Source: Candidatus Gastranaerophilales bacterium (GTDB lineage Bacteria; Cyanobacteriota; Vampirovibrionia; Gastranaerophilales; Gastranaerophilaceae). From it: a stretch of DNA of 64,000 nucleotides. The notes under the pieces are model-generated. The model was not told where the DNA came from, made no database searches, and saw only the letters and a program-made list of their open reading frames with translations. This document shows positions 29,691 through 51,277 of this stretch, one piece after another; within the stretch, counting starts at the first letter, position 1; every line of letters starts with the position of its first letter. The stretch covers positions 7,041-71,040 of the forward strand of contig CALUTP010000040.1 in NCBI GenBank assembly GCA_944323725.1. The letters run 5' to 3'. The translations under genes and the position numbers were made by a program.

Positions 29691-30272
29691 TTAAGTGTTA
29701 ATCAAATCAACTTTCCCTGTTGAATGATTAAAATGACATTTTGCAATGTATAATTCTTTATTTTCAACAGCATCACAAATAATTTTCGAATTTTCAATAA
29801 GAAATTTTTCTACCCAAAAGGTATGTTTTTTGGCGAATTCAGTACTACACACTGATGGGCCGTAATTTTCAATAACAGGATATACACACTTTGTAAAAGC
29901 TTTGAAATTTTCAGTTACATTAGGGTAATTTTCCCCAGCAAATTTCATAACACCGCAATCATCATGCCCTAAAAGTATCAGTAAAGGTAAATGTAATTTT
30001 TTTACAGCATACTCAATACTTTCTACGACATTAGGACCTGTAGTCATACCAGCGACTCTTACAACAAATAATTCCCCAATCCCGCAATCAAAAATTATTT
30101 CAGGAACAACTCTTGAATCAGAGCAAGTAAGTACAACAGCAAAAGGAGCTTGATATTTCTCATACTTTTGAAGAGTTTCTAAACTCTTTGTCACAGCCTG
30201 AGGATTACCGTTAATAAAATTCTCATTACCTTTCAAAAGTTTTTCTAACTCTTTTTTTGCCTTCTCTATCAT
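29691..30272 (-). CDS. beta-class carbonic anhydrase
   Basis: CSDSRVVPE and GHDDCG zinc-ligand motifs, plus FVVRVAG. Confidence 0.9.
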   Translation of the reverse strand: MIEKAKKELEKLLKGNENFINGNPQAVTKSLETLQKYEKYQAPFAVVLTCSDSRVVPEIIFDCGIGELFVVRVAGMTTGPNVVESIEYAVKKLHLPLLILLGHDDCGVMKFAGENYPNVTENFKAFTKCVYPVIENYGPSVCSTEFAKKHTFWVEKFLIENSKIICDAVENKELYIAKCHFNHSTGKVDLINT

Positions 30273-30316
30273 ACAAAACCCTCCTTTTTATGGAATTATA
30301 CCATAAAAAAGCCGAA

Positions 30317-31051
30317 TTATTTTTTACAAGATTTTTTACCGCTATCCCAATCCAATTCACATCGCAAGTAGTCAAGGTTTTCGTTATACAATACCCATGC
30401 GGTACATGATGCACCGTTTGTATAACCATCATACATTTGCCCGAATTCCCTTGTTTTTGTACAATAATTTTTCATGGATAACTTGTCAAATTCTGTTCCT
30501 ATAGGATACATACCTGATTTTGTAATATAAAAAACAAATATATCTTTTCCTAATATATTAGGTTTTCCTGTAGAATTTGTATCCACATATATTGTCCCAC
30601 AAACTTCTTTTAGCTGTTTTAAAGAACCATAATGGCTCTTACATTCTCCATTCCAATTTCTGAAAATGAATGTCGTTCCATCTGCTATTTTATAGCTTGA
30701 GAATTGAGACGTATTATACATAACTGACGTACAGTTCTTTTTCACTTCTTCATTACTCATTCCTACACAATTCGTCGTTATTTTTATATACGGTGCGAAT
30801 TTGTTTGCAAGAATAATATGATTGCTCGGTTCATTCTTACCTGTTACTCCCCATTCATCAGGAGTCCCGTCTTTTTGAGATGCCATTAAGTATGCCTGCT
30901 GCATGATTGAATAGGCTTTTTTTACTCTTGCTATTATGACTTTTTCATGTTGTTTTTGAACTGTCGCTGGCAGCGTAAGAGCTGCTACTACTCCGATTAT
31001 CCCTAAGGTTATCAATACTTCTGCTAAAGTAAATGCATTTCTCTTTTTCAT
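30317..31051 (-). CDS. prepilin-type N-terminal cleavage/methylation-domain protein (pilin-like, subfamily 1)
   Basis: GGAGG SD then ATG 31051. MKKRNAFTLAEVLITLGIIGVVAALTLP. The Cys-rich C-terminus (...VDTNSTGKPNILGKDIFVFY...NGASCTAWVLYNENLDYLRCELDWDSGKKSC) is similar to 40962-41723. Confidence 0.85.
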   Translation of the reverse strand: MKKRNAFTLAEVLITLGIIGVVAALTLPATVQKQHEKVIIARVKKAYSIMQQAYLMASQKDGTPDEWGVTGKNEPSNHIILANKFAPYIKITTNCVGMSNEEVKKNCTSVMYNTSQFSSYKIADGTTFIFRNWNGECKSHYGSLKQLKEVCGTIYVDTNSTGKPNILGKDIFVFYITKSGMYPIGTEFDKLSMKNYCTKTREFGQMYDGYTNGASCTAWVLYNENLDYLRCELDWDSGKKSCKK

Positions 31052-31174
31052 AATTCCTCCAAAATTATTACACTTTCTTAAATTTTTTGCATTTAAAAAC
31101 ACCGTTTCAGCTGTAACGGCTTATTTTTTATACTATTTTGGTTTGGAGAAACTAATTCAAAAAGCTCTAATAAG

Positions 31175-31228
31175 CTAAAATAAGGTTGCCCCCCCCCCCA
31201 ATAACCAAGTTATAACTACATTTTGCAT
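31175..31228 (-). CDS. short SD-preceded leader ORF running through a G11 tract (MQNVVITWLLGGGATLF*)
   Basis: AAAGGAGGA then ATG at 31228. The G11 tract occupies codons 10-14. Stop TAG at 31175-31177. Its N-terminus is similar to the leader at 50503. Confidence 0.4.
   Translation of the reverse strand: MQNVVITWLLGGGATLF
31189..31199 (-). repeat. homopolymeric tract: C11 on plus strand, G11 on the coding (minus) strand
   Basis: Read directly: ...ggttg ccccccccccc aataacc... It lies about 140 nt upstream of the pilin-like ATG at 31051. Confidence 0.95.
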
Positions 31229-31258
31229 ACATCCTCCTTTATTATTTCTTATTATAAA

Positions 31259-31660
31259 TTATGTTTCAGAATTTTTCAAGTAATCTTCAAAAGTTTTTAT
31301 ATTAACCTTATAACCACAACCATCATGAAGTTTCGCAGGATAAAGAATCCTTTTTGCAGGATATTTTCTGCACATTTGCGGGCGTTTATCATATACAGAA
31401 CACTTTCCATCAGAAGTGACCAGCTTACATGCAAAAACTAAATTTCCTTCATCATCTTTCCCTTTAATATAAAATCTTCTATAGGTAGGAAATAAAAATT
31501 GCATTATTTTAAATTCTTTTTCTGTATAAGTATCAATACTATACATGTAATTGCAGCATTTTCCACACTTTTTACACTCACCTGTAACTTCATAAATTAT
31601 TTGCTCAGGAACAAAATAAGACCTAATTTCATTTATAATACTACATATAAAATCATACAT
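31259..31660 (-). CDS. YkgJ-type cysteine-cluster (CxxCxxCC) protein
   Basis: ECKKCGKCCN plus later Cys residues (ACKLVTSDGKCSVYDKRPQMCRKYP), typical of the putative Zn/Fe-chelating UPF0153 family. Confidence 0.7.
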   Translation of the reverse strand: MYDFICSIINEIRSYFVPEQIIYEVTGECKKCGKCCNYMYSIDTYTEKEFKIMQFLFPTYRRFYIKGKDDEGNLVFACKLVTSDGKCSVYDKRPQMCRKYPAKRILYPAKLHDGCGYKVNIKTFEDYLKNSET

Positions 31661-31740
31661 AATTACATAATATCATAAAAGATTTGCCCATTATCTTATT
31701 TTATAATAGAATAATATAGCATAGAAGGGATATTAATATA

Positions 31741-33912
31741 ATGGTAAGAATAAGAAGAACTGATAAAAGAATGTCTGCAAAGAATTTTGCAAAATCTAAT
31801 ATTTCTAGAAGAAACACTGGATTTTGGGCTAATATGAGAAACCTTGCAATTTTTGGAACCGCTTGTGTACTAGCAGCTGGTGTCGCATTTGAACTTTATC
31901 TTTCTTCACTTTCTCCAATAAAAAACTTAGAAGAATTTAAACCTAATATCGTCACAAAATTTTATTCTTCTGATGGAGAAATCATAAAAACATTCACCGC
32001 TTATACTTTTGAAAAAGTCGACATAGAAAATGTCCCAGAAGAACTTAAAGAAGCATTAATCGCAACAGAAGACAAAAACTTTTACAAACATAAAGGATAC
32101 GATCTTTCAGGACTAGCACGTTCAACTATCCAAAATATACTTGCAGGTCATGTAGTACAAGGTGCAAGTACTATTACTCAACAGTTATCCAGAATATTAT
32201 TCCTTTCTAATGAAAGAACTTTTGATAGAAAAATAAAAGAACTTGTTATTGCAGCAAGGATTGAAAAAACAATTTCAAAAGATCAAATTCTTGAAATGTA
32301 TATGAATAATGTCTATTTAGGTTCTGGTGCCTATGGTTTTGAAGGAGCATCACAAATCTATTTTAATAAACATTTAAAACAATTAACACTGCCAGAATTA
32401 GCACTTCTTGCAGGTTTACCTCAAGCACCGTCAGTATATTCACCATTTAACAACATGGATTTAGCAGTTCAAAGACGTAATCAAGTACTTCTTAGAATGT
32501 ATAAAATGAAATACATAACAAAAGATGAATATGAAAAAGCTAAAGAAGCAAAAGTTAAATTAACATCAATGCCAAAATATTACACTACAAACAAGGCACC
32601 ATATTTTTGTGATTATGTAATGAAAGAACTCGAAAAATTAGGCTTTGACGAAACTGATATCTCACAAGGCGGATATAAAGTAGTTACAACAATTGATTAT
32701 AAGACTCAAGAAAAAGTAAATGAAGCAATTCTAAAAAACATGAGAGCATATGGACTCACCAGCAAAAATCAACAAGCAGCAGTCTTTTCATTTTCACCAA
32801 TTGATGGAAAAATCCTTGCATATGCCGGTGGAAAAGATTATACACAAAGTCAATATGACCGTGTACAAGCGGTAAGGCCATCCGGTTCAGCGTTTAAGCC
32901 TTTTGTATATGCCGCTGCTATGGAAAAAGGAATCAGTCCTAATGATTTCATAGAAGATAAACCTATTAAAATTGGGGATTGGGCACCAAAAAATTATGGC
33001 TCAAAATATAGAGGAGAAATCCCAGTATATTCAGCTTTAATGGTATCTTCCAACGTATGCGCAGTTAGACTAATCAAAGAAGTAGGCATACGCGCAGTAA
33101 TTCAAATTGCAAGAGTTTTAGGTATTACAACCCCTCTTGAATACGATTATACAATTGCATTAGGGTCAAATGGTGTAAAATTATTTGAATTAACCAGAGC
33201 ATATGGAGCTTTTGCAAATGGAGGATATGTTGTCCAGCCTTATGCAATAGAAAGGATTGAAACTTCTAGAGGTAAAGTGGTATATAGAGCTCCAAAAGCG
33301 AAAGTATCAAGACAACTAAGCCTTAAAACCGCAGCAGAGATGACTGCTATGTTAAAAACAGTTATCCAAAGAGGAACAGGTGCTGCAGCAAATATAGGAA
33401 AACCTGCAGCAGGTAAAACTGGTACTACAGATGATTATAAAGATGCAAGCTTTGTTGGTTATACCCCAAATGTTGTAACTGGTGTATGGGTAGGAAATGA
33501 TGATAATTCAGATATGAGATCTATTCAAGGCGGCACAGTCCCTGCACTAATCTGGCGTGATGTGATGAAAGTTGCAACTGCACCATATGGGAGTGTTGAT
33601 TTTAACTATCCAGAAATTGAACTTACCGCATTCCAAGCAAAGCCTGGAAGTATAAAAATTATAAAACAAGAAGAAGAAAAAGAAAAACAAGAAGAACAAA
33701 AACAGACTGAAACTCAACAGCCAATACAAGAAGCAACTACTCCTGCGGAAGTTCTGCAAAACTTCAAAAAACAACAGGCCGCCAAGCAGCAAACAGTTCA
33801 AGACTCTTTACAAACACAAACTTCTGCACCAATTCCAAAATCTACATCGACAACACCGCCATCACAAGCCCCTATACCTATACCAATGGCAGTCCCGGAG
33901 AGTTTACATTAA
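31741..33912 (+). CDS. class A penicillin-binding protein (PBP1A-type transglycosylase/transpeptidase)
   Basis: N-terminal TM. GT51 motifs EDKNFYKHKGYD and GASTITQQL. Transpeptidase motifs SGSAFKP, SSN and KTGTT. Q/E/K/T/P-rich low-complexity tail. Confidence 0.93.
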   Translation: MVRIRRTDKRMSAKNFAKSNISRRNTGFWANMRNLAIFGTACVLAAGVAFELYLSSLSPIKNLEEFKPNIVTKFYSSDGEIIKTFTAYTFEKVDIENVPEELKEALIATEDKNFYKHKGYDLSGLARSTIQNILAGHVVQGASTITQQLSRILFLSNERTFDRKIKELVIAARIEKTISKDQILEMYMNNVYLGSGAYGFEGASQIYFNKHLKQLTLPELALLAGLPQAPSVYSPFNNMDLAVQRRNQVLLRMYKMKYITKDEYEKAKEAKVKLTSMPKYYTTNKAPYFCDYVMKELEKLGFDETDISQGGYKVVTTIDYKTQEKVNEAILKNMRAYGLTSKNQQAAVFSFSPIDGKILAYAGGKDYTQSQYDRVQAVRPSGSAFKPFVYAAAMEKGISPNDFIEDKPIKIGDWAPKNYGSKYRGEIPVYSALMVSSNVCAVRLIKEVGIRAVIQIARVLGITTPLEYDYTIALGSNGVKLFELTRAYGAFANGGYVVQPYAIERIETSRGKVVYRAPKAKVSRQLSLKTAAEMTAMLKTVIQRGTGAAANIGKPAAGKTGTTDDYKDASFVGYTPNVVTGVWVGNDDNSDMRSIQGGTVPALIWRDVMKVATAPYGSVDFNYPEIELTAFQAKPGSIKIIKQEEEKEKQEEQKQTETQQPIQEATTPAEVLQNFKKQQAAKQQTVQDSLQTQTSAPIPKSTSTTPPSQAPIPIPMAVPESLH

Positions 33913-45185: not shown

Positions 45186-46553
45186 TTAATTATTTAAACT
45201 ATGAATTGGTGCAGGAATCCTTCCTCCACGACATACAAATCCACTTGAAGAAAGTTTATTGACAGACATAATAGGAGCTTCTCCTAGTAGACCTCCAAAT
45301 ATAACTTTATCACCCACACCTTTACCTATAGCAGGAATTATTCTTACAGCAGTCGTTTTTTTATTTATCATTCCTATTGCCATTTCATCAGCAATTATCC
45401 CAGCTATAGTAGTATTAGGAGTATCTCCCGGTATTGCAACCATATCAAGTCCAACAGAGCACACACAGGTCATTGCTTCTAACTTATCAAAAGTTAAATA
45501 GCCACTTGCTGCAGCCTCAATCATTCCAGCATCTTCAGAGACAGGAATAAATGCTCCAGAAAGCCCTCCTACATGAGAACTTGCCATAATTCCACCTTTT
45601 TTTACAGCATCATTAAGCATAGCAAGTGCAGCAGTAGTACCATGTGCCCCAGCATGTTCTAGTCCCATTGCCTGAAATATTCCAGCTACACTATCTCCTT
45701 CAGCTGGAGTAGGAGCAAGGGATAAATCAATTATTCCAAACGGAATTTCTAATCTTTTTGCTAACTTTCTTCCTACTAATTCTCCTGTAGAAGTAATCTT
45801 ATAAGCAATTTGTTTAATTTTATTAGCTAGCTGACTTAAATCAGCATCTTTTGGCAGGGCTTCAATTGCTGCTCTTACTACTCCTGGACCTGAAACTCCA
45901 ACATTTAAAGCACATTCTGGTTCTCCAATCCCGCAAAATGCACCTGCCATAAAAGGATTATCACTTGCTGAATTACAGAAACAAACAAGTTTTGCTGCGC
46001 CAAGTCCATCTTTATCTTTTGTAAGCTCTGCTGCTTTTTTAATTATATCAGCCATTTTTAAAACAGCATCCATATTTATACCTGCTTTTGAAGAAGCCAA
46101 ATTTATCGAAGAACAAAGTCTTTCTGTTTGAGCTAATGCTTCTGGAATACTATCAATCAAAAGATTATCACCTTTTGTACAACCTTTTTCTACCAGAGCT
46201 GAAAAACCTCCAATAAAATTTACTCCTACGTCTTTTGCAGCTTTATCTAAGGTTTTCGCTATTTTTACATAATCCGGATTTTTACAAGATTCTCCAACCA
46301 AAGAAATCGGAGTCACAGAAATTCTTTTATTAATTATAGGTATTGAATATTCGTTTTCTAAATCATTTGCATATTCAACAAGATTTTTTGCATAATGTTT
46401 AATTTTATTATAAATATTTTCACATACAATATCAACATCACTATCCATACAATCTCGAAGACTAATTGCCATAGTTACAGTCCTGATGTCAAGATTGTAT
46501 AATTTAATCATATTAATAGTTTCTAAAATAAGATTTTCGTTAATCACCGCCAA
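45186..46553 (-). CDS. UPF0210/DUF711 (PFL-like) family protein
   Basis: 455 aa. The N-terminus [27 protein letters not shown] and Gly-rich core are typical of the conserved UPF0210 family as I recall it. Confidence 0.8.
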
Positions 46554-47241
46554 AATTTAACCCAAACATTCTTGAAATGCTCTTTGCCTTTACTCTTAAT
46601 TTTAATTCTACACGACGGCTTTTTGCATAATCTTCCTTCCCGTCAGCCGTTAAAACAGGTTCAGAAAAACTTCTACCCTCTACAACTATCATTTTTCTAA
46701 ACTTTTCGCTGTATATAGGGTTATATTTCGTCTTTAGCATATAATTCTCAACAGCATTAGCCCTCAATAAGCTTAATTCCATATTTTTACTAAACTGTTC
46801 ATCAATTGTTTTTAAACCCTTAAACATTTGAGAATCCGTATGTCCTTGAACAACAATATTAACAACATTTTCATATAATGCAGGGTTAGAATAAATTGTA
46901 TCAATATAAATAGGAACAAATTTGTCCAAATATTTTTTTCCTTTATCAGAAAGTGTATAACTTCCAACATCAAAAAGTTCAAGTTCTGAAATTTTTACAT
47001 TACCCGTCAATTTATCAACTTCTGCATCAATATTTGCTTCTTGTAACCTATCTGCTAATTGTTCTGAGGCTTTCATTTGATTTTGCTGTAATTCAACAGT
47101 TTCTTGAGTAAATCCGGTCATCGCGAGAACAAATAGTGTCATGAAGATAATCGCCAAACCCAAAAGCAAGTCTGACATTGTTGTCCAGAATATATTATCA
47201 TTACCTTCTTCTATAGCTGATTTCTTACCGTAAATACCCAC
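46540..47241 (-). CDS. MotB/OmpA-family stator-like protein
   Basis: N-terminal [22 protein letters not shown] (a MotB-type TM helix with a conserved Asp). C-terminal OmpA-like peptidoglycan-binding domain (VVQGHTDS...LSLLRANAV...SRRVELKL). Its 3' end overlaps the UPF0210 start by 14 nt. Confidence 0.8.
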
Positions 47242-47256
47242 CTTTTAAGCTCTCCG

Positions 47257-48165
47257 TTAAAATAATTCATCTACTGCATCAGATTTACTAGCTTTTGCAA
47301 CCTCTTTCATCTGTTTATTCATTAGATTCATACCAAAAATAAGATTTTCCAAATATGGAACAAGATTTCCTGCAATACCTGAATTAAGCGCTATTTTAAA
47401 ATCATTAGGCAATGCTGCTATAATATGCTGCATTGCATTATTTTGAATTTTAGTTTCTCTTAAAAGCTCAAATAAGAATTTTTCAGAAGAAATATTATCA
47501 AATAATTTTGCAATAACATCCTGTACTTTAGCAAGAGGCTTTTTACATAAAAGACTATACGCTATTTTTTCATAAATAATGAATATCAAAGAAGAACCTA
47601 CCGCAAATACTGATACTAGTGCTGCAATTTGCATGGAACTCATCAATTGAGCAACAGATGCAATCGTTCTTTCTTGTGATGAAAAATCTATTTTACCAAA
47701 TGCAATTGCAATGTTTAAAAATGTAAATAATGGTCCGAAACCTGTCAAAATTGTTGATACAGATTGCATAAATTTATAATTAAACTTAGAAGTTACCAGC
47801 GATTCCTCATTAAAAAAGTATAATGGATCTACTGTTGTTTGAATATTTTGAACAGTTGTAGATACTTCCTTATATGTAAGATTATTATTTTGACCTTTTA
47901 AAGCAACTGATTCAGAAAATACAAGGGTATTTTTGAATTCCATCCATGTATTAGCTACATATGGATTCATCATCATCCATTCATCGATTTCTTTAAAACG
48001 ATAATTTAAATCATTTTTCTTAAAATTTTTAAAAAATGCAAGAAGAATATTTAGATTTTTATTTACAAACTTATACTTAACTACGCAAAAAACAAGTGAA
48101 GATACAAATGTAAATAATACGATCAGAATCGGAATATCCGTAAATATATGTATTAACATTCTCAT
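47257..48165 (-). CDS. MotA/TolQ/ExbB-like proton-channel family membrane protein (divergent)
   Basis: Three-TM topology: N-terminal IPILIVLFTFVSSLVFCVV, then ILTGFGPLFTFLNIAIAF and IAALVSVFAVGSSLIFIIY. It sits immediately upstream of the MotB-like gene. The assignment rests mainly on topology and gene pairing. Confidence 0.5.
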   Translation of the reverse strand: MRMLIHIFTDIPILIVLFTFVSSLVFCVVKYKFVNKNLNILLAFFKNFKKNDLNYRFKEIDEWMMMNPYVANTWMEFKNTLVFSESVALKGQNNNLTYKEVSTTVQNIQTTVDPLYFFNEESLVTSKFNYKFMQSVSTILTGFGPLFTFLNIAIAFGKIDFSSQERTIASVAQLMSSMQIAALVSVFAVGSSLIFIIYEKIAYSLLCKKPLAKVQDVIAKLFDNISSEKFLFELLRETKIQNNAMQHIIAALPNDFKIALNSGIAGNLVPYLENLIFGMNLMNKQMKEVAKASKSDAVDELF

Positions 48166-48361
48166 AAAGCAAAAATCTCCATTCTAAGTAAAATTGTACC
48201 ATAGATTGACTTAATAGGCAAATATTAAGCATAATTCAATAATTTCTCATCTATTTGATGTATATTTAAACAATTTAAATAAAGGTAATATTTTCTTTTC
48301 CGATATATCAAATATAGATATGAAAAACGAAAGTTTTTCATACCTCCTCCCCAAGTCTGGT

Positions 48362-48393
48362 AGCCGTTCTTATTCTAAGACGGCTTTTTTTTT
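48362..48393 (+). terminator. rho-independent terminator-like hairpin in the leader of the HK gene
   Basis: AGCCGT-TCTTATTCTAAG-ACGGCT followed by a T9 run. There is no plus-strand CDS upstream. Confidence 0.6.
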
Positions 48394-48418
48394 GCTAAAA
48401 ATCTGCTATAATAGATAT

Positions 48419-49150
48419 ATGAATAATATTGAAAAAAATTATGAAGATTTTATATCAACAGTAAGTCATGAATTAAGAACACCTTTAACTTCTATTAGAG
48501 GCTTTTCTCAGACTATGCTGACTTCATGGGATAAACTCGACGATGAAAGCAAAAAAAAGTTCTTAAAAATAATTGAAGAACAATCCAATAGACTTATTAA
48601 ACTTGTAGAAAATATGCTTTCAGTAACTAAACTAAACTGCACTGAAAAAGGTTTAATTTATAAAGAAACTGATATTGCTCCGTTAATAAATACAGTTGTA
48701 TCCATCTTAAAAAATCAATATAAAAACCATAAATTTGAAATTGACATAAATGCAAAAACTCCTACAATATTAGTTGACAGAGATAAATTTCAGCAAATAA
48801 TGACAAATTTAATAGAAAACGCAGCAAAATATTCAGATGAAAATTCAACAATAAAAATCACATCAGGATATTGTGATAATTGTGAATTTGTATCAATAAA
48901 GGTTAGTGACAGAGGAATAGGAATAAAAGAAGAAGATTACGAAAAAATATTCACAAAATTTTCGAGGATAGACAACCCACTTACAAGAAAAGTACAAGGA
49001 AGCGGATTAGGACTTTATATTACCAAAAATTTAATAGAAAAAATGGGAGGAACTATCTCAGTAAATTCTCACAACAAAGAAACAACATTCGAAGTAAAAC
49101 TTCCTGCATATAATCCAGAAAATCAAGCGAGGGTAAAATGCAGACAGTAA
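48419..49150 (+). CDS. soluble histidine kinase (HisKA + HATPase_c only)
   Basis: FISTVSHELRTPLTSI H-box, NLIENAAKY N-box, DRGIGI and GSGLGLYI G-boxes. The alternative start at 48320 would include two strong hairpins, so I prefer ATG 48419, although no SD is visible there. Confidence 0.8.
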   Translation: MNNIEKNYEDFISTVSHELRTPLTSIRGFSQTMLTSWDKLDDESKKKFLKIIEEQSNRLIKLVENMLSVTKLNCTEKGLIYKETDIAPLINTVVSILKNQYKNHKFEIDINAKTPTILVDRDKFQQIMTNLIENAAKYSDENSTIKITSGYCDNCEFVSIKVSDRGIGIKEEDYEKIFTKFSRIDNPLTRKVQGSGLGLYITKNLIEKMGGTISVNSHNKETTFEVKLPAYNPENQARVKCRQ

Positions 49151-50442
49151 CACTTATTATTGATAAAAGGAGAGAATTACCTGCAAAATATAAAAAGCTT
49201 TTGGAAAATAAATTTTCACAGGTTATAATATCTAAAAATTTGATTTCTGCTTTAAAGATTATTCAGGATAAAGAGCCTGATATGATAATAATTTCAGATA
49301 GCATAGACAGCGACCTCTCTGATTATTGTAAAAAAATTCGGGCTCTTACATATAACATGCGTCCAATTATAATTGCACTTTCAAAATCTGCAGAATTAGA
49401 AGACAAATTAAAAGTCCTGGAAGGCGGAGCTGATGATTTCATATCAGAACCAGTAAATTCAGAAGAATTTGTCATGCGAATAAAAGCTCATATGCGTAGA
49501 GAGTTTGAATCTAATCTTGATATAAAAAAAAGACTTCCTAATAAAAATTACTCTACTCGCGCAATAAAAAGAATTTTATCTGACAATTCAGATTGGGCAT
49601 GCCTGTATATCACGATCGAAAATTTCAAAAACTATAGAGAAGCATACACAAAACTTGCTTCAGATAAACTTTTACAGACATATTCTGCAATAATCACCTC
49701 CTCATTATCAGAAGATGACTTTTTGGGAAGTCTTTCTGAAAATGAATTTCTTGTAATCACAAATTCATATAAAGCAGAAAAAATTGCCAACTTTTTAACC
49801 TTTGCCTTTGATACAGTAGCACCGAAATTCTACTCTAAATCAGATACAGTAAGAGGATATATGATTACTCAGGGTAACGATTTAGCAGGAAGACGTTCTA
49901 ATTTTATGCATACCACTATTGGAATAGTAACTAATGAATATAAAAAATACACAGACCCGCAAGAACTTATCACATCTTTAATAAATATTCATAACATTGC
50001 AAATCTTCCTTCAGGTTCAAATTACCTCATTGAAAGAGCTAAACTTTCTGCAAACGATTCTATATCAATAAAAAATTATAATAAAAAAATATTTATTATT
50101 GAACCTGACGAAGCTATGACATTACTTTTAACAACTATTTTAACTATGCAAGGGTATAATATAGAGACTTTAAAAGAATTCAAAGAACAAGAAAATGAAG
50201 AGGATATTCCAGCAGTAATAATTCTAGATGCAGGAAATTTAGAAACAAAATCAGGACTTGAAACGGCAAAGAATATACGAAAAAACAAAAAATACCGAAA
50301 TACAAAATTAATAATAACTTCTATATTTCATGATAAAGAATTAATCCTTAATACAGGCGCAGACCTATACTTACCAAAACCATATGAACTTTCAACACTT
50401 GTAAAATGGATCGAAATATTTATAAATGAAGTAAACAATTGA
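49138..50442 (+). CDS. REC / degenerate GGDEF-like / REC three-domain protein
   Basis: N-terminal receiver-like domain (DMIIISD..., ALSKS, GADDFISEP). The central domain follows the GGDEF-fold pattern, but the signature reads SENEF (LGSLSENEFLVIT). A C-terminal receiver-like domain is present (IFIIEPDE, VIILDAGN, ITSIF, LPKPY). It overlaps the HK stop by 13 nt. Confidence 0.65.
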   Translation: MQTVTLIIDKRRELPAKYKKLLENKFSQVIISKNLISALKIIQDKEPDMIIISDSIDSDLSDYCKKIRALTYNMRPIIIALSKSAELEDKLKVLEGGADDFISEPVNSEEFVMRIKAHMRREFESNLDIKKRLPNKNYSTRAIKRILSDNSDWACLYITIENFKNYREAYTKLASDKLLQTYSAIITSSLSEDDFLGSLSENEFLVITNSYKAEKIANFLTFAFDTVAPKFYSKSDTVRGYMITQGNDLAGRRSNFMHTTIGIVTNEYKKYTDPQELITSLINIHNIANLPSGSNYLIERAKLSANDSISIKNYNKKIFIIEPDEAMTLLLTTILTMQGYNIETLKEFKEQENEEDIPAVIILDAGNLETKSGLETAKNIRKNKKYRNTKLIITSIFHDKELILNTGADLYLPKPYELSTLVKWIEIFINEVNN

Positions 50443-50502: not shown

Positions 50503-50556
50503 ATGAAAAACACAGTAATAGCTTTAAAACCGAGAAGGGGGGGGGGGATTAGATAG
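50503..50556 (+). CDS. short SD-preceded leader ORF running through a G11 tract (MKNTVIALKPRRGGGIR*); probable true start of the downstream pilin-like gene in the ON phase
   Basis: AGGAGA at 50491-50496, a 6-nt spacer, then ATG 50503. G11 at 50537-50547. TAG at 50554-50556. Confidence 0.45.
   Translation: MKNTVIALKPRRGGGIR
50537..50547 (+). repeat. homopolymeric G11 tract
   Basis: Read directly: ...ccgagaa ggggggggggg attagat... Confidence 0.95.
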
Positions 50557-50578: not shown

Positions 50579-51277
50579 TTGGGATTATCCCGTTATGCCT
50601 TTACTTTAGCTGAAGTTCTTATAACTCTTGGTATTATAGGTGTGGTCGCAGCTATGACATTGCCGACTCTGGTTAATAATACCCAAAATAAAGAGCTGGA
50701 GGCAAAATTGCAAAAATCATATTCCATTTTACAACAAGCAAAACAGAATATGGATTTGGATTACGGTATGACAGTTACACCTAAAACCCATAATACAAGA
50801 TCTAAATTTCTCCCAGAATTCGTTAAATATTTCAAAAAATACGTTAACTGTGGCTCTAATAAATGTAATATAATTGATAGAGATACCTCTGGAGATATAA
50901 ATTACGTACATTCAAATATATATAAGGCTTATAATAAAAAAATAACACCCTACGCTGACTTTTTTGACAATGCTTTATATACAATGGCTGACGAAATACT
51001 TCTAATATCTAATGATAATTTCACTGCTCATGGTATCGTATTAACAGTAGATGTGAATGGAGTCAATAAAAAGCCAAATGCTTGGGGACATGATGTATTT
51101 TGTTTCAATATACTAGATAATGGGAAAATAATGCCTATGGGGGCTGAAGGAACCAAATATCCCCTAAGCTTATACCCTAAATACTGTGATCCAACATCTA
51201 CAAGCAATATGAACGGTATGTCCTGCACTTATAAGGCTTTGACTGATCCTGATTATTTCAAAAACCTGCCGAAATAA
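50579..51277 (+). CDS. prepilin-type N-terminal cleavage/methylation-domain protein (pilin-like, subfamily 2), apparently phase-OFF
   Basis: ...RYAFTLAEVLITLGIIGVVAAMTLPTLV... with the C-terminus TVDVNGVNKKPNAWGHDVFCFNIL...NGMSCTYKALTDPDYFKNLPK. The frame is open from 50528 but contains no ATG or SD. The only in-frame start candidate is TTG 50579. Confidence 0.8.
   Translation: MGLSRYAFTLAEVLITLGIIGVVAAMTLPTLVNNTQNKELEAKLQKSYSILQQAKQNMDLDYGMTVTPKTHNTRSKFLPEFVKYFKKYVNCGSNKCNIIDRDTSGDINYVHSNIYKAYNKKITPYADFFDNALYTMADEILLISNDNFTAHGIVLTVDVNGVNKKPNAWGHDVFCFNILDNGKIMPMGAEGTKYPLSLYPKYCDPTSTSNMNGMSCTYKALTDPDYFKNLPK

What the first reader, a model, noticed from the sequence alone, without database searches (positions are those of the whole stretch)
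31093..31240. Second G11 tract with a homologous leader ORF upstream of another pilin-like gene; the -1 frame encodes a truncated prepilin N-terminus
On the minus strand, AAAGGAGGA and ATG 31228 open MQNVVITWLLGGGATLF*, running through G11 (31199-31189). Its N-terminus (M-Q-N-V-V-I-T) parallels the other leader (M-K-N-T-V-I-A), and both tracts are exactly 11 G. With 10 G the ORF becomes MQNVVITWLLGGGQPYFSLLELFELVSPNQNSIKNKPLQLKRCF*. The segment FSLLELFELV is a recognisable prepilin methylation-motif core (compare FTLAEVLITL). That ORF stops at 31093-31095, so it does not fuse to the downstream pilin gene, which has its own GGAGG-ATG at 31051. A weak hairpin (CCGTT-ACAGCTGA-AACGG) plus a T5 run lies between them. 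This looks like either a decayed phase-variable pilin 5' end or a phase-variable leader that modulates read-through into the downstream gene.
Basis: partly seen in the sequence, partly recalled or inferred. Interest (0 to 1): 0.7.

Follow-up and report, generated by a model that had tools for sequence, protein, structure and literature searches.

The report
Poly-G switch leader before pilin gene
A run of eleven G's sits inside a tiny upstream reading frame in front of a pilus-protein gene of an uncultured gut bacterium. It belongs to a large, apparently undescribed family of mutation-driven on/off switches, and here it probably acts indirectly, by letting ribosomes open the messenger RNA ahead of the gene.

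Summary
On the minus strand there is a near-consensus promoter (31279-31251), then AAAGGAGGA, ATG 31228 and an uninterrupted G11 (31199-31189). These open a 17-codon ORF. With G10 the ORF has 44 codons and ends at 31093, 42 nt before the SD-led pilin-like gene (31051-30317). The window has only two G>=8 runs, and both lie in pilin leaders.

The organism is a Gastranaerophilales (Melainabacteria) gut bacterium. Across that order, 55 of 128 genes of this pilin-like family carry a leader with a G or C tract. In 53 of those 55 the leader is fused in frame to the pilin, as at the window's second locus. A sister species has G8, G9 and G10 alleles at the homologous leader.

This locus is a rarer split form. 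The 44-codon frame is the ancestral pro-peptide frame, collinear with the syntenic fused ortholog. It is not a decayed prepilin motif.

Two other diverged loci carry the same full layout: uORF start, tract, an anti-SD that pairs with the pilin SD, and a terminator-like hairpin. Two more are partial or variant. That favours a working phase-variable uORF/attenuator over a fossil.

All six assemblies of this near-clonal species have G11. The mechanism is inferred, not shown.

The parts
31251..31279 (-). Sigma-70-type promoter: -35 TTGAAA (31279-31274), 17-nt spacer, -10 TATAAT (31256-31251). It overlaps the 3' end of the CxxCxxCC gene.
   Evidence: Best promoter match in 30200-31800, 11 of 12 positions. 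Equivalent TTGAAA-17-TA(T/C)AAT sites precede the leaders of L016 and L180.
31232..31240 (-). Shine-Dalgarno sequence AAAGGAGGA of the leader ORF.
   Evidence: Read directly from the sequence. Identical 9-mer in L016.
31175..31228 (-). Leader uORF as assembled (G11): 17 codons, MQNVVITWLLGGGATLF, then TAG.
31189..31199 (-). Homopolymeric G11 tract inside the uORF (codons 10-14).
   Evidence: G11 in six independent assemblies.
31093..31228 (-). Span of the long uORF phase (44-45 codons at G10 or G13). This is the ancestral ON frame. It crosses the anti-SD and the hairpin and stops at TAA 31095-31093.
   Evidence: Gapless alignment to the L180 pro-peptide.
31142..31154 (-). Anti-SD segment TAGTTTCTCCAAA, complementary to the pilin SD region.
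   Evidence: Inverted repeat I2. Pairing probability 0.97. Duplex -15.1 kcal/mol, p=0.015 against shuffles.
31095..31120 (-). Terminator-like hairpin GCCGTT/AACGGT with an 8-nt loop (31120-31101), followed by T5 (31099-31095).
   Evidence: Terminator scan. The fold of the 40-nt segment is -7.7 kcal/mol, which includes flanking A:U pairs. Homologous hairpins in L016, L017, L145 and L049 show compensatory changes at two pairs.
31051..31063 (-). Pilin SD region TTTGGAGGAATTA (GGAGG at 31060-31056). This is the arm that pairs with the anti-SD.
30317..31051 (-). Type-IV-pilin-like gene, 244 aa, MKKRNA|FTLAEVLITLGIIGVV..., carrying N_methyl and DUF6613.
   Evidence: PF07963 scores 26 bits (cut-off 21.2) and TIGR02532 scores 21.5 (cut-off 16.3). 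PF20318 comes from the precomputed table. The predicted structure has a 53-residue N-terminal helix and a beta-rich head.
50503..50556 (+). Comparator: the leader ORF of the second locus (MKNTVIALKPRRGGGIR*), with G11 at 50537-50547.
   Evidence: With G10 or G13 it fuses in frame to the pilin ORF ending at 51277 (257-258 aa).
50579..51277 (+). Comparator: the pilin-like ORF of the fusion-type locus. Its frame is open from 50528 through the tract.

Best explanation
What is shown:
- The locus belongs to an order-wide family of contingency leaders in Gastranaerophilales. Each has a strong promoter, an SD, a start codon, about 10 codons, and then a G or C run of about 10 placed in front of type-IV-pilin-like genes.
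- In the usual form, tract length decides whether the start codon is in frame with a long pro-peptide and the pilin.
- At 31093-31240 that fusion has been split. The ancestral pro-peptide frame survives as a 44-codon uORF, and the pilin has acquired its own SD and ATG.

What is inferred:
- Tract length still controls the pilin, but indirectly.
- With G11 or G12 the uORF stops 11-21 nt after the tract. The downstream anti-SD (31154-31142) then pairs with the pilin SD and the terminator-like hairpin can form. Pilin expression is low.
- With G10 or G13 ribosomes run on through the anti-SD and the hairpin to the T-run. This frees the SD and opposes termination. Pilin expression is high.
- The result would be a heritable, stochastic on/off or high/low switch made from slipped-strand mutation and ribosome-mediated attenuation.
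For: Family context:
- 55 of 128 pilin-like genes in 160 loci from other Gastranaerophilales have a G/C>=8 tract within 450 nt upstream.
- In 53 of those 55 the pilin frame is open through the tract.
- Tract density is 1.04 per kb upstream of pilins and 0.03 per kb elsewhere.

Real variability. At the homologous leader of a sister species (MENAVMTRLFGGG), otherwise near-identical assemblies carry G10 (OFF), G9 (ON) and G8. Three further contigs end 12-18 nt before the tract.

Ancestry. The syntenic ortholog L180 (PBP1A, CxxCxxCC, pilin, carbonic anhydrase) has G11 and fuses at G10. The window's 44-aa frame is collinear with its pro-peptide.

Selective retention, from the comparison with L016 (78% identical pilin, same split layout):
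- Four-fold sites are 65% identical and the spacer only 54%.
- The 9-nt SD, the ATG and the uninterrupted tract are all retained.
- At about 0.47 substitutions per site (my estimate), keeping 10 tract positions by chance is about 1% likely. Keeping the 12 SD and ATG positions is about 0.4% likely.

Recurrence of the split layout:
- L145 (pilin about 33% identical) has uORF, G9, an ACCUCCG anti-SD, a 9-bp hairpin with T5, an SD and an ATG. Its long phase stops inside the 5' arm of the hairpin.
- In L133 (C10) the long phase ends in ATGA, overlapping the pilin start.
- L049 has the same hairpin and SD.

SD sequestration:
- Pairing probability is 0.97 in the window and 0.48 in L016.
- Only 2% of spacer shuffles sequester the SD as well.
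- Spacer:SD duplexes beat shuffles in all four loci: p = 0.015, 0.052, 0.003 and 0.054.

Hairpin. Two stem pairs change on both sides among three homologs.
Against: - No tract-length difference was seen in this species: G11 in 6 of 6 assemblies here and 5 of 5 at the second locus. These assemblies are 99.9-100% identical, so they are hardly independent.
- The window's hairpin is weak. The fold of the 40-nt segment is -7.7 kcal/mol including flanking A:U pairs, and the stem has 6 pairs. Its T-run is degenerate in L017.
- In L016 the ancestral frame is broken after 5 codons. Its long phase is a different frame with an unrelated peptide.
- The chance that some frame reaches the hairpin is not small: 0.11, 0.25 and 0.68 in shuffles.
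- The CTCC of the anti-SD is also present in the fused ortholog L180, so it was inherited rather than built for this purpose.
- In the same folding test, 4 of 31 gene starts in the window, this pilin among them, have an SD that is 5% unpaired or less.
- A -10-like TGnAATAAT or TGGTATAAT motif lies between hairpin and SD in the split loci and could be a separate promoter.
- Nothing here is experimental.
Confidence: 0.55

Rival explanations
1. Fossil leader. Recombination with a tract-less paralog gave the pilin its own SD and ATG, and possibly its own promoter. The hairpin insulates the pilin from the old leader. The uORF and the G11 tract are then leftovers that no longer affect pilin expression.
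For: - The ancestral state was a fusion.
- The pilin has a strong independent SD and ATG. MKKxAFTLAEV is the usual N-terminus of tract-less paralogs.
- A terminator-like hairpin separates the two parts.
- A -10-like motif follows it.
- G11 is invariant.
- The ancestral frame is already broken in L016.
Against: - An unselected G10-11 run and an unselected SD and ATG should not survive about 0.47 substitutions per site in both lineages while the spacer drifts to 54% identity.
- The same layout, including the uORF start and the tract, is kept in L145, whose pilin is only about 33% identical.
- The spacer's complementarity to the SD has no purpose if the long transcript is irrelevant.
- In the window the -10-like motif ends 3 nt before GGAGG, so a transcript started there would begin inside the SD.
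Confidence: 0.27
2. Expression-site intermediate. The promoter-leader-tract module is a fixed expression site into which different pilin cassettes are recombined. The present arrangement is a transient product of such an exchange, not a regulatory design.
For: - The syntenic site holds a different pilin paralog in the sister species and no pilin at all in another relative.
- Two contigs from different samples and assemblers (L017, L018) start at the same base, just 5' of the hairpin.
- L003 carries the identical module behind a different upstream gene, with the junction at window 31276.
Against: - The hairpin-to-ATG segment and the leader are co-inherited in L016 and L145, with divergence consistent with age.
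- No recombinase gene or repeated recombination site was seen.
- The hairpin motif occurs only at these loci among the roughly 200 loci fetched.
Confidence: 0.1
3. G-repeat as a binding target. The transcribed G run is bound by a C/U-rich small RNA or a protein, and its length tunes expression gradually, as with RepG and tlpB in Helicobacter pylori. The reading frame would then be irrelevant.
For: The tract lies in the transcribed leader about 45 nt after the likely start. A precedent exists (PMC8295292).
Against: - The tract lies inside an ORF with a strong SD and ATG, and those are conserved across loci.
- In 53 of 55 relatives the pilin frame is open through the tract, which only makes sense if the tract is translated.
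- No C-rich candidate sRNA is present in the window. The two C6/G6 runs are inside ORFs.
- There is no Rfam match.
Confidence: 0.05

Closest known systems
Translational phase variation by repeats in the signal-peptide coding region: Neisseria opa (CTCTT) and pilC (poly-G). Stated from my own knowledge.
   Same: A hypermutable repeat just after the start codon of a surface or pilus-associated protein sets the reading frame. There are many paralogous loci, and most are OFF at any one time. The window's second locus and 53 of 55 relatives work like this on paper.
   Different: At 31093-31240 the tract is no longer in the pilin ORF. It sits in a separate uORF upstream of an SD-led cistron. The organism is a non-photosynthetic relative of cyanobacteria, not a proteobacterial pathogen.
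Campylobacter jejuni poly-G contingency genes (PMC11955535)
   Same: A low-GC genome in which G8-G11 runs are rare and concentrated in surface-structure genes. G(n) versus G(n+/-1) gives ON or OFF.
   Different: In C. jejuni the tracts are mostly inside the regulated ORF. Here the tract acts through a uORF, and 51 of 54 relatives are OFF in the consensus assembly.
Ribosome-mediated attenuation, as in the E. coli pyrBI and trp leaders, and SD unmasking by leader translation, as in ermC. Stated from my own knowledge.
   Same: A short leader ORF is followed by a terminator hairpin and/or an SD-sequestering helix. Whether the ribosome reaches that structure decides downstream expression.
   Different: In those systems, ribosome progress is set by physiology: charged tRNA, UTP or an antibiotic. 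Here it would be set by a heritable frameshift in a homopolymer. Membership is not claimed, because termination and unmasking were not tested.
[quoted passage not shown]
   Same: A length-variable G run in an mRNA leader acts after transcription on a downstream gene.
   Different: The tlpB repeat is untranslated and acts through an sRNA in a graded way. Here the run is translated, and the frame is the likely variable.
Haemophilus influenzae hmw1A 5'-UTR heptamer repeats (PMC12721329) and the invertible leader of Clostridioides difficile cwpV, which makes a terminator (cwpV stated from my own knowledge)
   Same: A phase-variable DNA element changes the structure of the 5' leader RNA, not the promoter or the ORF.
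   Different: The repeat type and mechanism differ: RNase III processing for hmw1A and site-specific inversion for cwpV. Neither involves a uORF.

Membership tests
Homopolymeric-tract contingency locus (slipped-strand phase variation) | An uninterrupted mononucleotide run long enough to slip (8 or more), in excess over chance. | tested here: met
   G11. There are only two such runs in 64 kb, and 0 of 100 shuffles reach the observed count.
Homopolymeric-tract contingency locus (slipped-strand phase variation) | Tract length differs between strains or populations. | tested here: inconclusive
   G11 in 6 of 6 assemblies of this near-clonal species. The homologous leader of a sister species shows G8, G9 and G10. 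Five contigs of this species end within about 35 nt of a tract: L007, L008 and L201 at this locus (L201 carries the 98%-identical CxxCxxCC allele) and L013 at the second.
Homopolymeric-tract contingency locus (slipped-strand phase variation) | Length heterogeneity within one population, at read level. | not testable with these tools
   No reads are available.
Homopolymeric-tract contingency locus (slipped-strand phase variation) | A change in length changes expression of a gene. | tested here: inconclusive
   It changes the uORF to 17, 20 or 44 codons. The effect on the pilin is inferred from the anti-SD and the hairpin.
Type IV pilin / pseudopilin-like protein (downstream gene 31051-30317) | Class III signal peptide: a short basic leader, [GA]-F-T-L-x-E, then about 20 hydrophobic residues. 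| tested here: met
   PF07963 scores 26.0 bits (cut-off 21.2). TIGR02532 scores 21.5 (cut-off 16.3).
Type IV pilin / pseudopilin-like protein (downstream gene 31051-30317) | A long N-terminal alpha-helix packed on a beta-sheet head. | tested here: inconclusive
   The model (pLDDT 86) has a helix at residues 9-61 and a beta-rich head. The best PDB match is gonococcal pilin 1AY2, but at E=0.21 it is not significant.
   No Pfam or NCBIfam hit at E<=0.1. The segment aligns to the linker of the L180 pro-peptide, upstream of the real GFTLAEV.
Ribosome-mediated transcription attenuator | A leader ORF with its own SD and start, followed by a hairpin and U-run before the regulated gene. | tested here: met
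   The element is weak here: the stem has 6 pairs, and the fold of the 40-nt segment is -7.7 kcal/mol including flanking A:U pairs. It is strong in L145 and L049, with 9-bp stems and T5-T6.
Ribosome-mediated transcription attenuator | Leader translation overlaps the terminator in the permissive state. | tested here: met
   The long phase crosses the hairpin in the window and in L016, and stops in the 5' arm in L145. The chance expectation is not negligible.
Ribosome-mediated transcription attenuator | Termination and read-through measured in vivo or in vitro. | not testable with these tools
   This needs Term-seq, RNA-seq or reporter assays.
SD sequestration relieved by upstream translation | An anti-SD complementary to the SD of the regulated gene, lying in a region translated only in one state. 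| tested here: met
   13-nt inverted repeat at 31154-31142 and 31063-31051. Pairing probability 0.97. Only 2% of shuffles do as well. The duplex is significant or near-significant in 4 of 4 loci. The short uORF phases stop 12-20 nt or more upstream of it.
RepG-type sRNA-targeted G-repeat | A C/U-rich sRNA that pairs with the repeat. | not testable with these tools
   No candidate in the window. The rest of the genome is not available.

The most novel reading that the evidence does not exclude
Gastranaerophilales use a conserved two-cistron contingency switch. The poly-G-set reading frame of a uORF decides whether ribosomes plough through an anti-SD and a terminator, and so turn on a separately initiated pilin gene. 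This would be a mutation-driven, heritable version of ribosome-mediated attenuation. It would sit within a very large system of homopolymer switches on pilin-like genes in a gut lineage related to cyanobacteria, a system not found described in the literature searched.
Probability: 0.45. Interest if true: 0.75.

Novelty: new variant of a known kind. Interest (0 to 1): 0.62.

Why it matters
Homopolymer phase variation is textbook for a few pathogens such as Neisseria, Campylobacter, Helicobacter and Haemophilus. I found no paper describing it for Melainabacteria or for the DUF6613 pilin-like family.

The data suggest that these common, uncultured human and animal gut bacteria run dozens of pilin-like genes as stochastic switches. 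Nearly all of them are OFF in the population consensus. That bears on how these bacteria vary their surface in the face of host immunity or phage.

It also has a practical consequence. Gene callers routinely mis-start or truncate these genes, and assemblies break at them.

The split form at this locus would add a new way for a repeat to act: through the length of a uORF, not through the promoter or the regulated ORF. Reporter constructs can test this directly.

Tried and rejected
- Prepilin motif in the G10 frame: rejected.
- Known RNA family, riboswitch or leader: no Rfam match at E<=1 in 30800-31500.
- Sequencing or assembly artefact: rejected, because six assemblies agree.
- The hairpin as a foreign cassette boundary or recombination site. 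The motif occurs only at these orthologous loci, and the region aligns to the coding linker of L180. I kept this only as a low-probability rival.
It was useful only for the family survey.
- The look-up of the 98%-identical CxxCxxCC allele (L201) ended 30 nt after the gene, before the tract.
- ORF openness as proof of function: too weak, with shuffle probabilities of 0.11, 0.25 and 0.68.
- Whole-leader folding z-scores were not significant, at -0.37 and -1.21.
- A single programmed frameshift or slippage rule for the family: rejected, because 40 loci need +1 nt and 11 need -1 nt.
- Fold search of the pilin model gave no significant PDB match.
- A covariance model of the tract-to-ATG region found one new instance (L049). 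Its other hits were driven by the G run alone.

Full report
**1. Observation**

All features lie on the minus strand.
- A promoter-like site, TTGAAA-17 nt-TATAAT, lies at 31279-31251. It matches 11 of 12 positions and is the best match in the region.
- AAAGGAGGA lies at 31240-31232 and the ATG at 31228.
- An uninterrupted G11 lies at 31199-31189.

As assembled, the ORF is MQNVVITWLLGGGATLF*. With G9 or G12 it has 19-20 codons.

The pilin-like gene starts at its own GGAGG-N5-ATG (31051) and runs to 30317. Between uORF and gene lies GCCGTT-ACAGCTGA-AACGGT plus T5 (31120-31095), which the terminator scan flags.

The window is 30.9% G+C. It has only two G/C runs of 8 or more: this one and G11 at 50537-50547. 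Shuffles give 0.16 8-mer matches against 8 observed.

**2. Organism and gene**

Homologs of the 244-aa protein are named Candidatus Gastranaerophilales, or are mislabelled CAG bins.
- The protein passes the curated cut-offs for the prepilin N-terminal methylation motif. PF07963 scores 26 against 21.2, and TIGR02532 scores 21.5 against 16.3.
- It carries DUF6613 in the precomputed tables.
- A confident model (pLDDT 86) has a 53-residue N-terminal helix and a beta-rich head.
- No solved structure matches significantly. The best is gonococcal pilin at E=0.21.
- Four such genes lie in the window, and two of them have G11 leaders.

**3. The family-wide pattern**

Many homologs are called with long N-terminal extensions that contain GGG near the start, for example MENTVKTRLSGGGQ...RGFTLAEV.

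I fetched 160 loci from species-representative genomes and metagenomes and examined them.
- Of 128 pilin-like genes with 300 nt or more of upstream sequence, 55 have a G or C run of 8 or more within 450 nt.
- In 53 of those 55 the pilin frame is open right through the tract.
- A good SD and ATG lie 14-35 nt upstream of the tract.
- Tracts are 35-fold denser there than elsewhere in the same loci.

This is the classic translational ON/OFF layout. The window's second locus is an example. ATG 50503 gives 17 codons at G11 and a 257-aa prepilin at G10.

Literature searches found nothing on this for Melainabacteria or DUF6613.

**4. Is the tract variable?**

In this species it is G11 in six assemblies from different samples at locus 1 and in five at locus 2. 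Those contigs are 99.9-100% identical to the window, so they are close to one clone.

Five contigs end within about 35 nt of a tract: L007, L008 and L201 at locus 1, and L013 at locus 2.

The homologous leader in a sister species tells more. Its CxxCxxCC neighbour is 88% identical and its leader is MENAVMTRLFGGG.
- Otherwise identical assemblies carry G10 in three cases (OFF), G9 in two (in frame with ...GGGQSSLST...RGFTLAEV, so ON) and G8 in one.
- Three further contigs stop 12-18 nt before the tract.

So this leader type does vary in nature. For the window's own tract, variation is not demonstrated.

**5. What the 44-codon frame is**

The syntenic ortholog L180 has the order PBP1A, CxxCxxCC, pilin, carbonic anhydrase, ferritin. 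Its CxxCxxCC protein is 82% identical and its pilin 60% identical.
- It has the same promoter, SD and start, and a G11 tract.
- At G10 it reads MKNIDMSRLAGGGHPQFKLSQIIREVENTWFSLSKRYGMLCRKF-GFTLAEV..., a 283-aa fused prepilin.
- The window's 44-aa product aligns to the first 44 residues of this without a gap (E 5e-6).
- It stops where L180 goes on with GFTLAEV.

So FSLLELFELV corresponds to the linker FKLSQIIREV, not to a pilin N-terminus. It also has no methylation-motif HMM hit.

The G10 frame is therefore the ancestral ON frame. The locus is a fusion that has been split by a stop and a new SD-ATG-KKRNA segment.

**6. Fossil or working part?**

*Comparison with L016.* L016 has a 78% identical pilin in a different genomic neighbourhood, and it has the same split layout. 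In order, this is TTGAAA-17-TATAAT, AAAGGAGGA, ATGCAAAA, G10, a spacer of about 70 nt, the hairpin GCCGTG...CACGGT with T5, GGAGG and ATG.
- Four-fold sites in the pilin are 65% identical. I estimate about 0.47 substitutions per site from this.
- The spacer is 54% identical, against 43 +/- 4% for shuffles.
- The SD, the ATG and the whole tract are intact in both.
- Under neutrality, that retention has a probability of about 1% for the tract and less than 1% for the SD and ATG (inference).

*Further split loci.* A covariance model and the survey turned up more.
- L145 (pilin about 33% identical) has uORF MKCTDINGFAGGG, G9, an ACCUCCG anti-SD, a 9-bp hairpin with T5, and SD-ATG.
- L049 has the same hairpin, T6 and SD. 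Its contig breaks upstream.
- L133 is the C10 type. Its long uORF phase ends in ATGA, overlapping the pilin start.

*uORF phases.* In the window, L016 and L145, exactly one of the three tract phases gives a uORF that reaches or crosses the hairpin. All four split loci with upstream sequence are assembled in a short phase.

*Hairpin.* The stem shows changes on both sides at two pairs among three homologs. With only three sequences, 58 of 500 shuffles do as well.

**7. The anti-SD**

Folding the leader pairs UAGUUUCUCCAAA (31154-31142) with UUUGGAGGAAUUA (31063-31051).
- The pairing probability is 0.97 in the window. The equivalent CCUCC:GGAGG pairing in L016 has 0.48.
- The repeat finder reports the same arms independently.
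- Shuffling the spacer leaves the SD 5% unpaired or less in only 2% of trials.
- Among 31 gene starts in the window, this SD is the third most sequestered.
- Spacer:SD duplex energies beat 1000 shuffles in all four loci. The values are -15.1 (p=0.015), -11.6 (0.052), -18.1 (0.003) and -13.1 kcal/mol (0.054).
- The anti-SD lies downstream of the short-phase stops and inside the long-phase uORF.

Caveat: the fused ortholog L180 also has CTCTCC at this place. The motif was therefore inherited and at most co-opted.

**8. Mechanism proposed (inferred)**

Slippage sets the tract length.
- At n = 10 or 13, ribosomes translate 44-45 codons through the anti-SD and the hairpin. This frees the pilin SD and opposes termination.
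- At other lengths they stop early, the SD is masked and the hairpin can form.

Weak points:
- The window's hairpin is weak, and its T-run is degenerate in L017.
- L016's long phase is not the ancestral frame.
- A -10-like motif between hairpin and SD (TGTAATAAT here, TGGTATAAT in L049) might be a separate promoter. In the window, however, it would start the transcript inside the SD.

I put the family membership and the split-fusion origin at about 0.9. I put the attenuator mechanism at about 0.5.

**9. Comparison with known systems**
- The fused form works like Neisseria opa and pilC and like C. jejuni poly-G genes (own knowledge; PMC11955535).
- The split form resembles ribosome-mediated attenuation (pyrBI, trp, ermC; own knowledge), but with a heritable frameshift as the input.
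- It also resembles leader-acting repeats such as the H. pylori RepG-tlpB G-repeat (PMC8295292) and H. influenzae hmw1A (PMC12721329).

It is filed under none of these. It meets the sequence-level features of a contingency locus and of an attenuator, but the functional features are untested.

**10. Verdict**

This is a real, non-random feature. It is a new variant of homopolymer phase variation in a lineage where none has been described.

Noticed in passing
L019-L178 (160 Gastranaerophilales loci); window 50503-50556: Of 54 fusion-type leaders, only 3 are in the ON frame in the assembled consensus. Forty need +1 nt and 11 need -1 nt. Tract lengths pile up at exactly 10 (G10 in 26 loci, C10 in 11). 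This OFF bias is far from the one-third ON expected if length were neutral, and it is unexplained.
   Followed up: partly
L022, L023, L031, L033, L037, L052, L079, L095, L111, L132, L133: A poly-C subclass of leaders encodes a conserved peptide, (K)QEALR[IV]APPP. This suggests selection on the leader sequence itself, not just on the tract.
   Followed up: no
L003:1-212, joined to window 31276: In sample BRZ_P the identical promoter-leader-G11-pilin module follows a different upstream gene, a small membrane protein. The junction falls exactly at the -35 box. The contig has low coverage, so a chimera is not excluded.
   Followed up: partly
L201 tail, equivalent to window about 31285-31272: A strain with a 98% identical CxxCxxCC protein has GAAAAAAAG in place of GATTACTTG. 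That changes the -35 from TTGAAA to AAGAAA. Counting L003, three -35 variants exist among otherwise near-identical strains.
   Followed up: no
L017:1 and L018:1: Two contigs from different samples and different assemblers begin at the same base (TAAGCCGTG), immediately 5' of the hairpin. This hints at a repeat boundary or a structural polymorphism there.
   Followed up: partly
L182-L190 versus window 31229-31260: In the sister species, about 300 nt of unrelated sequence lies between the CxxCxxCC gene and the leader, and the pilin behind the homologous leader is a different, larger paralog. In another relative (L191-L200) the site holds no pilin at all. The site is a hotspot of pilin gene turnover.
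   Followed up: partly
L196: about 1790-1900: A GC-rich insertion of about 107 nt (GCGGATTTTCGGTAGGGTGCCGTGTGAGCG...) lies in the intergenic region and is absent from nine otherwise identical contigs. It may be a small mobile element.
   Followed up: no
L049:1-32: The contig begins with C16 followed by GC-rich junk, just upstream of a split-type leader remnant. This is probably a poly-G read artefact marking where the real tract lies.
   Followed up: no
window 46540-50442: The second G11 pilin locus lies directly downstream of a HisKA kinase and a response regulator (Response_reg-GGDEF-Response_reg), and near a ZorA-like/OmpA-like pair, according to the precomputed Pfam annotations.
   Followed up: no
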